Assembly: GCA_951406725.2 (NCBI GenBank)
Contig: OX597814.1
Location: forward strand, 215,264,001 to 215,328,000
Reading direction: 5' to 3'
DNA: 64,000 bases
Source: Octopus vulgaris
Taxonomy: Eukaryota
This document shows positions 29,664-61,059 of this stretch, piece by piece; position 1 is the first letter of the stretch, and the number at the start of each line of letters is the position of its first letter. Both the position numbers and the translations under genes were made by a program. The notes under the pieces were generated by a model. That model saw only the letters and a program-made list of their open reading frames with translations. It made no database searches and was not told the DNA's origin.

Positions 29664-30229
29664 TTGGCGGCGAGCTGGCAGAACCGTTAGCATGCCGGTC
29701 GAAATGCTTAGCGGTATTTCGTTTGCCGCTACGTTCTGAGTTCAAATTCTGCCGAGGTCGACTTTGCCTTTCATCCTTTCGGGGTCGATAAATTAAGTAC
29801 CAGTTACGCACTGGGGTCGATATAATCGACTTAATCCGTTTGTCTGTCCTCTCTGTGTTTAGCCCCTTGTGGATAATAAAGAAATAGGTATTTCGTCTGC
29901 CGCTACGTTCTGAGTTCAAATTCCGCCGAGGTCGACTTTGCCTTTCATCCTTTCGGGGTCGATAAATTAAGTACCAGTTACGCACTGGGGTCGATCTAAT
30001 CGAGTTAATCCGTTTGTCTGTCCTTGTTTGTTCCCTCTATGTTTAGCCCCTTGTGGGTAGTAAATAAATAGGTATTTCGTCTGCCATTACGTTCTGAGTT
30101 CAAATTTCGCCGAGGTCGACTTTGCCTTTCATCCTTTCGGGGTCGATTAAATAAGTACCAGTTACGCACTGGGGTCGATGTAATCGACTTAATCCGTTTG
30201 CCTGTCCTTGTTTGTCCCCTCTGTGTTTA
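29664..30229 (+). mobile_element. Family-A MetaSINE-like trimer inside one 13-bp TSD
   Basis: One head, then bodies starting ggtatttcg at 29713, 29887 and 30071. TSD tattaattcctgt at 29651-29663 and 30230-30242. Confidence 0.93.
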
Positions 30230-31407: not shown

Positions 31408-31438
31408 CTCAAAATAAGCAGCAGGATATCCAGAGGTG

Positions 31439-31526
31439 ATGCAGTACGACCGTTTCAAGCAGCTCCATTTAATTGAACGATGCAATCATTACATCAACTG
31501 AAATGCAGAGCTATCCTCAGCTGCAT
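31439..31526 (-). ncRNA. Type-I hammerhead ribozyme with extended stem II
   Basis: Minus strand: atgcag CTGAGGA tagctc..cattt..agttga / tcaatt aaatg gagctg ctt GAAA CGGTCG TA ctgcat. 6-bp stem I, GUA site, followed by tail tgcttattttgag. Confidence 0.75.
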
Positions 31527-31906
31527 AAATAAATAAAAAGAATTAATTTAATCAGACGGACACATTTGTATAATTTTACTTAAATTCTGTAAGAAGGTAA
31601 GAAGACAAAGCCCATGCTGTTCTCACTTCAGCTTAGAAGCTGCTAAGACATCAGGAAAAAGGAAACTTGTTAGGGTTCTAGCTTGTCACTGATTTTTAGG
31701 GTCGGTTTTGATTTATAGTCCTAGTTTATCAAATCTTTGTATATCAAAATCTAAGACAAGCTGAAGTGAAAATAGCACTGACTTTGTCTGTCTTCTGGAT
31801 TTCTTGTTGCTTATTTTGATATTATTGATCTTATTTTAAAATTGTACGGATAATACCGCACTGATTTTTGGTGTCTCAACCTAAGTATCTAATTCATCTG
31901 AATCTC

Positions 31907-31996
<90 letters not shown>

Positions 31997-45619: not shown

Positions 45620-46319
45620 GTTACACACACACACACACATTCAGATGCGCGCATGCACAAACACACATTGCTGTTCTGGGTGTACGCGAATGTTTATAAG
45701 TAGCTTTTTTGTGTCTATTCAAGTATCTTGAACGACGGTTCAGCTATAAATACTGTTTTGAGTAAACGACTCCCGATAGTCCCAGAGATACCTAGACCGA
45801 CTAGAGATCACCTCCCCTTCATCTGTCGTCGCTAAGGTATCACCCTACCCACATAACGCAGCTGATTAACTAACGGACGTTATTTTCTAACGGACGTTAT
45901 TTTCTAATGTAGAAGTCATTCCTGCACTCCATGTTTCAAGCAGTGTTGTCGCTGACGCATCAAACACCACATTTCGTTGTCTACGCAACATTAATATCCA
46001 TGTGGAATGTTGAATCTGTCATTAGTGACTTTATCACTACAACCATGTGACCTGAACAGACCAGTTGGAGTACAGGTTTCTTAATAAGAAAAAAGCCATC
46101 TTGTTTTTTCTCCATTGTACGTCCATGTCTAAGGAGGTAGTTGGGTTTTTCATGTTCACGAAACGTTAAGTAACATGACAAGCTAACCTGTGAGTAACTA
46201 CAAATAAATACAAGTGTACCTATTTACTGAATGCTATTTCTGTTCGTTTCTTTACCCATTCGTCTTTCTCTCTGTCTCTCTTTCTCTATTTCTCTGTCTT
46301 TGTCTCTCTATCTCTCTTT

Positions 46320-57226: not shown

Positions 57227-59291
57227 GATTTTCACAAAAACACAAGCGTGTGTTTTTAAAGCCCTTTTTAAAACGTTTTTCCTCTGAATAGCTTCACTAA
57301 ATCTTTTGAGTGTTTCAGTGCGCCTCTCCGCTATGCGCTGTATAGCCATGGCCCAGAAAATCAAGGAGAATTATTCTCTTGCCATTCCATAAAAGAGTCT
57401 AGATGATTTTCTCTTCCAATCGCTGACTCTCGATCCTTTTTTTCTGTAACTCTGTAAACAATACAGATTAATTTGTTCCGTAATATTGTCTAAGTTTAAA
57501 CCTTCTTTGGTTACCTATTACAACTTATTAGTTTCTAAACAGGAAAACTCTCTTCAACCTGTTAGAAATAAAAGCGAAATATCTGTGAAATATCGCTCGG
57601 CCATCTTAAAATTGTATGATCATAGTGTATAAAGCAGCCTGAAACTAGACGAGATGGTCACTGCGGAACGCCTTTAATCAAAGTAATTTTCGATTAGAAT
57701 TCGTTGCTCTGAGGCTAAACAACAACAAAAAGATAATGAAAATACACAGATCGGAATGTTATTGCTTCGAAACACGGAACGTGACAAATATAGCTGTTAT
57801 TAAAATGGCCGAGTGAATGGGTTAACAATTTCCTAAAGCTTTTTGTCTGATTACACTGCAGGAAGTTGCTAAATGATTGGACAGTAAATTTTATTGAGTG
57901 CACTTCAACTAACACAGCTGTTTATCTGCAGAGATTAGCATCATAATCAATGATAAATTCATTCGTGTGTCCCCTCTGCTATGCTTTAAAATCAGAGTTA
58001 GCCATCGATTCTTATGAACCCCACGGAGCTTTAGAGACAGTTTTTACAGTTTTACAAGTGAAACAAAGAACCTGAATCTAGTTCAGACGACACAGTGCAT
58101 GCACATGAATCTTGCAGCACAAAATCAATATTGTAAATAAAGAAAATAAACTATGTTGAGATGTCTATTGTTATATGAGATGGGCTTACATTGTGCTGAA
58201 CCGTTCAAATGATTAGGAAAATACAAGTTTTATGATATAGCTTTGTGAATTAGTTTTATTTTACTTATTCTTTCTCTTTCAATAAATTTCATTTATTGTC
58301 AAAATATTATAATACAGAAATATCTCTACAGACATCTTTGTACATACACAATAAATGACATATTTCACTTATTCTCTCTTAAATTATTCCTTCCAGACAA
58401 ACCGCTTGATTTCTCTCCACACGCTGAAATACATGCATATATGTATGTGTGTGCGTGTGAGAGAGAGAGAGAGAGAGAGAGAGGGAGAATGTGCGTGTGT
58501 GTGTGAGTGAGTGTGTGTGATTTAGTGTGTATATGTGAGCATGTATGTGTGAGTGTATACGTGTTGCGAGTGTGTGTGTGTGTGTATGTGCGCGTACGTG
58601 TGTACACACACACACACGCACACCCACATATACTCTTTATTGTTAAAGCTGCAAAAACATAACAAAAAAATCACAAAAAACTGCTACTCAGAGTTTTATG
58701 TTCCCGCTCGTCGGACAGTTGTGATTAAGAAGTACCAAACTGAGAAGGCTCCGCATTCACTGTATATCCCGAATCAGACGCGTTCGGCTTCCATGTGTTT
58801 TATCCAATGAGAGGCCAGTTCTCTGAGATAACAATTAGATGACACAGACGAGGCGTAAGCGACTACAACGTGAACAGGAGTTTCTAGCTTTTAAACAATA
58901 CGCGTATTCTAAGTATGTGGTATTGATAATGCTTGCATTATAGAGATGCTAAAGTTGCATAATCTGAATTTATTCTACCTGTGCAGCACCACAGCAAATC
59001 TAAACAGTTTTTACAATATCTGTGTATACGTCATGCTAAAGATTTCGATTTCGTCTCGGAAGTGACTCGAGTGCATGGAACTGGTAGGCTGCATTGGTAG
59101 CGAAATAAGTATCTGTCACTCTGCTGATCGTTCTGCGGGTTTTCTTGTCGACTACATTTCTAAAGAGATTTTCCCAGGACGATAAACATACGTCAAGTGT
59201 ATAGTATCGGATATATATACGGTCGTGCATAATTCATATATATGTATATATATGTATATATATATATATATTATATATATATATATATATA

Positions 59292-59384
59292 TAATTGGCT
59301 GATGAGTACTCAGCATTTTAAAACTGTTGTAATACTTACAACATTTAATAAAATAATGTAGTAAGAAACGATCGTACCAAATTA
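59292..59384 (+). ncRNA. Type-I hammerhead ribozyme with canonical core and palindromic stem III
   Basis: taattgg CTGATGA (59299-59305) gtact...tgttgtaa-tac-ttacaaca...agtaa GAAA (59365-59368) CGATCG TA ccaaatta. Predicted cleavage after 59376. Element 59292-59413 sits between (TA)n runs and ends tgcttattttgag. Confidence 0.8.
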
Positions 59385-59442
59385 CCAGAGTCATTATCGT
59401 TGCTTATTTTGAGTATATATATATATATACATATATATATAT

Positions 59443-59497
<55 letters not shown>

Positions 59498-60030: not shown

Positions 60031-61059
60031 GACATATCAGGTCATCCCACCTAATACAACAGCTAATGCAACAATCAATGCTCAAGTCTACTGAGTAGGC
60101 TGTTTCCTTTTCAAACTGATTTGATCTACATATATATGCATATAAACAATAGCAATATGTATACTTATTGTTTTACGCAAATAAATGATACAAGCTTATT
60201 TTATTTTATTAACTTTTAGTTTACTTTATGTAATATATGTTACATAAACTGAACAAAAAATGGACAGCCCATTCATTTTGGGTGAATTTAAGTCATTTTA
60301 GACTGTTTAACTTTACGTTTCTGCCCAATTAATTTATGTTGTATGTATATTATTACTGATACTTTATTACTACTTTCTAATTTTAATTATATTTTAAAAT
60401 TATTATTTTAATTATAATGATCTAATTTTTTTGATAACAATAATATTGTGCTGCAACTTTCAAAACTGAAATAATAAATTGAAATAGTTAAAAGATTTAA
60501 AGGAATTAATTATAATATAGAAGAAACAAAAAATAATAAATATTTTTGACACTGTTAATAATTAGCAATTAAAAATCTTTTTCCTGTTTGATAATTTCTA
60601 TACATTATTGCAATTCTTAATCTTTGTTTGATCAAATGTTTTTGTCGTTTTGTTGTAATAGTAGTCAGTTACCATCTTTTTTCTGCTTTAAACTATTCAT
60701 TAGTTTTGTATGTATTTAAGATTAAGATTATAAATGATTTTAGATTTTATAAAAAGTACAACAAAATGTGTTTTAGTAAATTTTTTTAAGAAATACTTTC
60801 AAGAAATATTAGTAATTTTTTTTTAAAAGAAATACCTAATTATTTCTTTCTTTTTAAAGTTTCATATTGGTTGATATTTTTTCAATAGAGCATTTTGTTG
60901 AATTCTTTTTTTGGTTTTCAAGAAATTTTTTTCCCATAAAATTTCTTCCTTTTTTAAGATTATATTTTTTAAGCATTAAATTTTCGTCAAGAAAAAGTAA
61001 GTACCAGTACCATCGTTAGCCCGTTATCATACGGTTTACACCCACATACGGCGGTGAGG

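What the first reader, a model, noticed from the sequence alone, without database searches (positions are those of the whole stretch)
59292..59413. Best hammerhead copy: canonical CUGAUGA core in a ~120-bp island between TA runs
The island consists almost entirely of the ribozyme plus a ~30-nt tail. It has stem I ttgg/ccaa, CTGATGA, a long AU-rich stem II capped by tgttgtaa-tac-ttacaaca, GAAA, the perfect palindrome ACGATCGT and a GUA site. The only visible defect is a G.A apposition at the base of stem II (agtaa instead of agtac).
Basis: partly seen in the sequence, partly recalled or inferred. Interest (0 to 1): 0.75.

Follow-up and report, generated by a model that had tools for sequence, protein, structure and literature searches.

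The report
Clipped end of Penelope-like jumping gene
This short island is the clipped, mutated tail end of a common animal jumping gene that inserts into TA repeats; it carries a hammerhead RNA motif with an unusually long arm that is predicted to cut itself as a pair of molecules in intact relatives, while this particular copy is likely dead.

Summary
The motif is real and sits where stated, but it is not a free-standing ribozyme island. It is the 5'-truncated 3' end of a Penelope-like retrotransposon with the protein motifs of the Hydra clade. 19 of 20 loci picked by the family's GIY-YIG endonuclease carry this sequence 0.5-1.7 kb downstream. Two loci show hammerhead-ORF-hammerhead tandems. 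Stems I, II and III covary across sister families. Two intact copies are predicted to cofold into a dimeric hammerhead through ACGAUCGU. This copy is decayed. It has four private substitutions, among them the G.A at the base of stem II (607 genomic copies have C, 4 have A). It has lost distal stem I, and its stems I and II are predicted unformed (p<=0.03). A second hammerhead in the window (31520-31445) has an intact core, so 'best copy' is doubtful. What is uncommon is the 59-nt stem II, against about 12-26 nt in published Hydra examples; 12,262 such motifs occur genome-wide against 82 control matches. The scan noted this class before on other DNA of this and another genome. Cleavage is untested.

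The parts
59236..59289 (.). (TA)n target microsatellite, upstream side
   Evidence: TRF; sequence
59290..59298 (+). Remnant 5' strand of stem I (TATAATTGG); truncation point in a TATA microhomology; the family continues upstream as ...GGAAAACCTC
   Evidence: 5' extent 9 nt, second shortest of 45 hits
59299..59305 (+). Hammerhead core CUGAUGA
59306..59364 (+). 59-nt irregular stem II; private substitutions at 59355 and 59364 each break a family pair
59325..59343 (+). Apical hairpin of stem II, kept with compensatory changes in sister families
   Evidence: helix 3: 86% of cells paired, 2 of 8 pairs changed on both sides
59365..59368 (+). Core GAAA
59368..59375 (+). Palindrome ACGAUCGU, predicted intermolecular helix III
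59376..59376 (+). Predicted cleavage nucleotide (GUA)
   Evidence: position in the hammerhead consensus; cleavage untested
59377..59412 (+). 3' strand of stem I and 36-nt tail ending at the family's first 3' end-point
   Evidence: 31 of 58 hits end at +36 to +41
59413..59413 (+). Junction G, absent from the read-through element sequence
   Evidence: G in 19 of 34 copies that stop here, in 1 of 29 that read on
59414..59493 (.). (TA)n target microsatellite, downstream side
   Evidence: TRF

Best explanation
The island is the 5'-truncated, point-mutated 3' end of a Penelope-like retrotransposon that is likely of the Hydra clade, and it carries that element's type I hammerhead, which is predicted to cleave as a dimer in intact copies and is likely inactive in this one. 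Shown: the sequence is the 3' terminus of an RT plus C-terminal GIY-YIG element of about 4.7 kb per unit, present in hundreds to thousands of copies, inserted in (TA)n, with variable 5' truncation and two fixed 3' end-points. Inferred mechanism: the element's protein nicks a TA repeat and primes reverse transcription inside a tandem, uncut or re-ligated RNA at a UUAUA word 36 nt past the cut site. Here synthesis stopped after about 123 nt and was joined to the target through TATA microhomology, and the copy then gathered four substitutions. In intact tandem transcripts two hammerheads would pair through ACGAUCGU to form helix III and cut after GUA, probably with help from the element's protein as reported for the anole element.
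For: Linkage: 19 of 20 loci chosen only by the endonuclease carry the island on the same strand 0.5-1.7 kb downstream. L046 and L070 have direct hammerhead copies 4.9 and 4.7 kb apart around the ORF. Protein motifs: DKT, YRDD, CxCX5C, GIY-YIG-type VIYKC..YFGCS, CxxC..E..N..CxH in L054 and L055, matching the Hydra definition (PMC8557442 section 11) and, by eye, the Hydra alignment in its supplement. Structure: 92.8% of 250 cells paired, 11 of 25 pairs changed on both sides, covariation 0.413 against 0.202 shuffled (0 of 500 reach it) and 0.035-0.154 when slid; RNAalifold recovers stems I and II unprompted. Palindrome: in the first 30 genomic pattern loci the 4-mer is a perfect palindrome in 16 (GATC, AATT, ATAT, ACGT, GCGC) and a wobble palindrome in 12. 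Energy: self-duplex -10.0 against monomer hairpin +2.4 kcal/mol; two L009 copies cofold unconstrained into the dimeric hammerhead, 6.8 kcal/mol below two monomers. Decay: 607 against 4; stem I and stem II base pair probabilities 0.00-0.03 here against 0.34-0.87 in L009. Uncut template: 0 genomic matches of cut site followed by TATATA.
Against: No cleavage assay. Pfam gives no RT or GIY-YIG match for 7 protein pieces and PDB none for the one protein searched, so the RT call rests on motifs. No tree with published Hydra proteins was built. The unit (about 4.7 kb) is longer than the 'generally <3 kb' of Hydra elements, and the one own-family N-terminus I translated reads RWI, not RWK (RWK in sister loci L059-L065). 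The covariation alignment has only 10 sequences from about 4 families, and I drew the structure from these same sequences. The base of stem II is unpaired in many sister families (T.T in 15 of 30), and a U.U hammerhead of the axolotl cleaves (PMC7229834 section 15), so G.A alone does not prove that this copy is dead. Copies that begin at the cut site are few (5), no more than at the truncation point of this copy (6), so the genome gives no sign that cleavage shapes insertions.
Confidence: 0.88

Rival explanations
1. The island is an independent non-autonomous ribozyme element (retrozyme or mini-element) that moves as a 120-bp unit.
For: It is bounded by TA runs on both sides and consists almost wholly of hammerhead plus tail; 6 genomic copies share this 5' junction; a retrozyme-like 430-bp tandem with another hammerhead exists in the genome (L114).
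Against: 5' ends of 45 hits are scattered from 7 to 635 nt upstream of the core; 19 of 20 endonuclease loci carry the island; the island is single, not tandem; 6 copies out of many hundreds is what a TATA microhomology would give.
Confidence: 0.04
2. The family motif is no longer catalytic and is kept as a protein-binding or reverse-transcription start structure.
For: Copies pass uncut through the site; PMC11167929 reports that hammerhead mutants do not affect insertion in vitro and found no reads ending at the cut; stem II is much longer than catalysis needs.
Against: Exact core words at the right spacing occur 12,262 times against 82 control matches; the palindrome is kept through different sequences; the anole PLE hammerhead does cleave with protein.
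Confidence: 0.12
3. This copy is still active and has been co-opted, for example to cut a host transcript.
For: Its core and palindrome are intact; mismatches at the base of stem II are tolerated in other families (PMC7229834).
Against: Predicted misfolding as monomer and as dimer; no partner copy of the family's hammerhead in the window; four private substitutions in about 123 nt, two of them breaking pairs.
Confidence: 0.03

Closest known systems
Hydra clade of C-terminal EN+ Penelope-like elements (Craig et al. 2021, PMC8557442; passages, section 11, supplement part 2 with Files S1-S2 and searched passages seen), including Hydra-1_Obim of Octopus bimaculoides
   Same: RT then GIY-YIG; DKT, CxCX5C, CxxC and CxH; (TA)n targets; type I hammerhead near the 3' end; 5'-truncated inverted copies; short tail
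   Different: Another family: the Hydra-1_Obim hammerhead has a different sequence and a stem II of about 23 nt. The 26 Hydra rows of File S2 have about 12-26 nt between the core halves (counted by eye), against 59 here. The unit is about 4.7 kb with an Asn-rich insert and a long 3' UTR.
Minimal and palindromic PLE hammerheads (Cervera and de la Pena 2014, PMC4209133; parts 1-2 of 4 read, supplements not seen)
   Same: Type I, short stem I, palindromic helix III, proposed dimer action, most copies solitary remnants of truncated PLEs
   Different: Helix II is 7-8 bp there; here it is an irregular arm of about 20 pairs with an apical hairpin
Poseidon element PAc of Anolis (Frangieh et al. 2024, PMC11167929; parts 1-2 of 4 read, supplements not seen)
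   Same: Two internal RT start sites that give an optional tail; uncut RNA as template; AT-rich targets
   Different: There the start site is reported as not homologous to the target, here both 3' end-points fall on a TTATAAT word that matches (TA)n; the optional extension here is about 100 nt; the hammerhead there overlaps the ORF start
PLE-X1 hammerheads of spike mosses (File S2 of PMC8557442)
   Same: Long stem II (about 48-53 nt), a precedent for the long arm
   Different: EN-minus plant elements that target 28S rDNA; unrelated sequence

Membership tests
Type I hammerhead ribozyme | Core CUGANGA, GAAA and NUH in type I order | tested here: met
Type I hammerhead ribozyme | Stem I closing the core | tested here: met
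   4 bp (7 with a bulged A); 3 of 4 pairs change on both sides across families; distal part lost in this copy
Type I hammerhead ribozyme | Stem II stacked on the core | tested here: inconclusive
   Met for the family (p 0.85-0.87 in L009), not for this copy (p<=0.03)
Type I hammerhead ribozyme | Helix III, or a palindrome that forms it in a dimer | tested here: met
Type I hammerhead ribozyme | Loop 1-loop 2 tertiary contact | not tested
   The long arm puts the apical loop far from the usual place; no 3D model was made
Type I hammerhead ribozyme | Self-cleavage after NUH | not testable with these tools
   No raw RNA reads were offered
Hydra-clade PLE | Single ORF with RT and C-terminal GIY-YIG | tested here: met
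   L054, L055, L046 (broken copies); open 941-1091-aa frames in sister loci; by motifs, since Pfam is silent
Hydra-clade PLE | DKG changed to DKT | tested here: met
Hydra-clade PLE | RWK motif | tested here: inconclusive
   RWI in own-family L046; RWK in L059-L065, RWR in L056-L057 and L073-L074, RWA in L066-L068
Hydra-clade PLE | CxCX5C linker; CxxC and CxH around the conserved E and N | tested here: met
   CNCRIRSKC, CQLC, CIH in L054 and others
Hydra-clade PLE | Absence of the CCHH motif in the endonuclease | not tested
   No alignment with CCHH-bearing references was made
Hydra-clade PLE | Insertion in (TA)n; canonical hammerhead near the 3' end; pLTR tandems and inverted truncated copies | tested here: met
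Hydra-clade PLE | Phylogenetic placement with published Hydra RTs | not tested
   Only a by-eye comparison with the supplement's alignment
Animal non-LTR retrozyme | Short non-coding tandem repeat with no linked ORF | tested here: not met
   Single copy here; family linked to an RT-EN ORF

The most novel reading that the evidence does not exclude
Hydra-type elements of this genome carry a distinct long-armed hammerhead. The 55-63-nt stem II with its conserved apical hairpin is a docking arm for the element's own protein, or a new tertiary contact, that switches on dimeric cleavage, and TATA-paired priming with a frequent extra G at the junction records how these elements start reverse transcription.
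Probability: 0.25. Interest if true: 0.6.

Novelty: new variant of a known kind. Interest (0 to 1): 0.28.

Why it matters
The island itself is ordinary transposon debris. The family matters modestly. It shows a large radiation (at least 12,000 motifs) of long-stem-II hammerheads that Rfam did not detect here and that a short-stem pattern misses. It also supplies intact tandem elements in sister families, in which the open question of what PLE hammerheads do can be tested: deletion of the arm, the palindrome or the protein.

Tried and rejected
A pattern with a 5-35-nt stem II found nothing, because stem II is 59 nt. Rfam gave only low-complexity microRNA-type matches. Pfam and PDB were uninformative. 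No RNA holder was listed on record as RNA, and only contigs were offered. Contigs of three coded organisms and of guessed-RNA runs cover the island and mostly carry G at 59355 and C at 59364, but no contig bridged the insertion, so an empty site could not be looked for. In four guessed-RNA runs most of the unique flanks had no cover; this is no evidence on expression. Enrichment of copies that start at the cut site was looked for and not found. A degenerate hammerhead-like string at 46129-46172 (CTAAGGA core) was not pursued. Lunse et al. (PMC5785218) is not held; I know it only through passages of the review PMC6765202. Paper searches turned up no description of long-stem-II Hydra hammerheads in cephalopods. 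The bioRxiv preprint 10.64898/2026.07.22.740005 (three passages seen; supplements closed) has no mention of octopus, mollusc, stem II or helix II in its main text. Unseen supplements and Repbase or Dfam entries may hold this family.

Full report
Observation. The same descriptor finds two sites in the window and none in 200 Markov controls. Rfam does not recognise it, and a pattern limited to a 35-nt stem II misses it.

It is a repeat. The window lies in a 2.8-Gb genome, octopus-like by my inference from its size and repeats (recalled, not from a call). A search with the island gave 1623 first-look candidates; 40 were scored and 43 matches listed, the 40 full-length ones other than the window itself at 93-96% identity. 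The relatives reach further on both sides. Their 5' ends are scattered from 7 to 635 nt upstream of the core in 45 hits, the window copy being second shortest at 9 nt. Their 3' ends cluster: 31 of 58 hits end 36-41 nt past the cut site and 17 at about 139 nt (this count took only hits that run at least 17 nt past the cut). Several loci carry an inverted truncated copy in front, for example L005, L007 and L037. These are the marks of Penelope-like elements as drawn in PMC8557442 (Fig. 2 legend).

The parent element. Locus L030 carries a GIY-YIG-type frame about 1 kb upstream of the motif. That protein has 17,154 first-look candidates in the genome (150 scored). I fetched 20 of the best-scoring of these loci (the top 18 other than L030 itself and two with long open frames); 19 of the 20 have the island downstream on the same strand, L050 being the miss. 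L046 and L070 hold two direct copies 4.9 and 4.7 kb apart around the ORF, the upstream one running on through the tail into the 5' UTR and the start codon. The protein shows DKT, YRDD, CNCRIRSKC, CQLC and CIH, the Hydra-clade diagnostics of section 11 of PMC8557442, and resembles by eye the Hydra alignment in its supplement. Pfam and PDB give no support. The own-family N-terminus of L046 reads RWI, the unit is longer than usual for the clade, and no tree was built. The own-family ORFs that I saw are broken; sister families at 70-74% identity in the RT piece have open frames of 941-1091 aa.

Structure. In 10 sequences from about four families, 92.8% of 250 cells form standard pairs and 11 of 25 pairs change on both sides. 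No shuffle of 500 reached the covariation score, and slid controls fall to 24-55% paired. The structure was drawn from these sequences and they are related, so this overstates the case; RNAalifold recovers stems I and II on its own. A genome-wide exact pattern, CTGANGA-N45-70-GAAACNNNNGTAC, matches 12,262 times against 82 for the reversed control. In the first 30 such loci the free 4-mer is a perfect palindrome in 16, a wobble palindrome in 12 and neither in 2; 23 have a stem I of 4 bp or more. The palindrome cannot close as a monomer hairpin (+2.4 kcal/mol) but pairs with itself at -10.0, and two intact L009 molecules cofold without constraints into the dimeric hammerhead. This fits the dimer model of PMC4209133.

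This copy. Against 61 near-full copies it has private letters at 59355, 59364, 59396 and 59398; exact 31-mers with C at 59364 number 607 and with A 4. Stem II alone folds at -11.6 against -15.9 kcal/mol. Stem I and the base of stem II have pair probabilities of 0.00-0.03 against 0.34-0.87 in L009, and two window copies do not cofold into a hammerhead. G.A alone would not settle the matter: the position is T.T in 15 of 30 loci, and an axolotl U.U hammerhead cleaves (PMC7229834). The second hammerhead of the window, 31520-31445 on the minus strand, belongs to a sister family (2953 candidates), keeps its upstream flank and matches its relatives.

How it likely works. Shown: copies pass through the cut site intact, and none ends at it before a TA run (0 matches); five begin at it, no more than the six that begin where this copy does. 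Inferred: reverse transcription starts inside an uncut or re-ligated tandem RNA, as reported for the anole element, whose hammerhead is protein-assisted and not needed for insertion in vitro (PMC11167929). Both end-points here fall on TTATAAT, which suggests pairing with the TA target. Of 34 copies that stop at the first end-point, 19 have G where 28 of 29 read-through copies have T; 59413 is such a G, either untemplated or from the target.

Novelty and verdict. Hammerheads in Hydra elements, and a Hydra family in an octopus, are published. The long stem II is not among the 26 Hydra rows of File S2 (about 12-26 nt by my count), though spike-moss PLE-X hammerheads there reach about 50 nt. Five paper searches found no account of this variant; Repbase, Dfam and several supplements were not seen. 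Earlier notes of this scan describe the same class on other DNA. The island is a decayed fragment of a known kind of element; the family's long arm is a modest variant worth a bench test.

Noticed in passing
window 31408-31800 (minus), hammerhead 31520-31445; inverted piece 31801-31910: A second truncated element of a sister family, with an intact core, 6-bp stem I, a 57-nt stem II and the same kind of tail, also ending in a junction G before a TA run; 2953 first-look candidates genome-wide.
   Followed up: partly
window 59413; loci L002, L014-L024, L062, L065, L084, L086: A G stands between element and TA run in 19 of 34 short-tail copies of this family, where read-through copies have T (28 of 29); also seen by eye in sister families. 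Untemplated addition or target-derived.
   Followed up: partly
L114:937-1749 (G000 C1 near 15.596 Mb): 430-bp direct tandem with a long-stem-II hammerhead and a CCGCGG palindrome, flanked by TA runs; looks like a retrozyme.
   Followed up: no
L057:1100-4375, L061:1096-4050, L068:1078-3606: Sister families with open RT-EN frames of 842-1091 aa; L061 is flanked by two identical hammerheads, so it is probably young. The L068 family has A.C at the base of stem II.
   Followed up: partly
G000 C29, 29.65-29.69 Mb: RT pieces of this family recur about every 9 kb, a large tandem array or segmental duplication.
   Followed up: no
window 46129-46172 (+): Degenerate hammerhead-like string (CTAAGGA ... 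GAAAC GTTAA GTA, 5-bp stem I); may be an old remnant or chance.
   Followed up: no
window 60063-60093: 31-nt stretch found inside contigs of four guessed-RNA runs; with the loose ends it reads as a frame resembling a mariner transposase (resemblance recalled, untested).
   Followed up: no
window 29713-30229: 184-bp tandem (2.9 copies, 91% matches) of a SINE-like repeat (kind recalled, untested).
   Followed up: no
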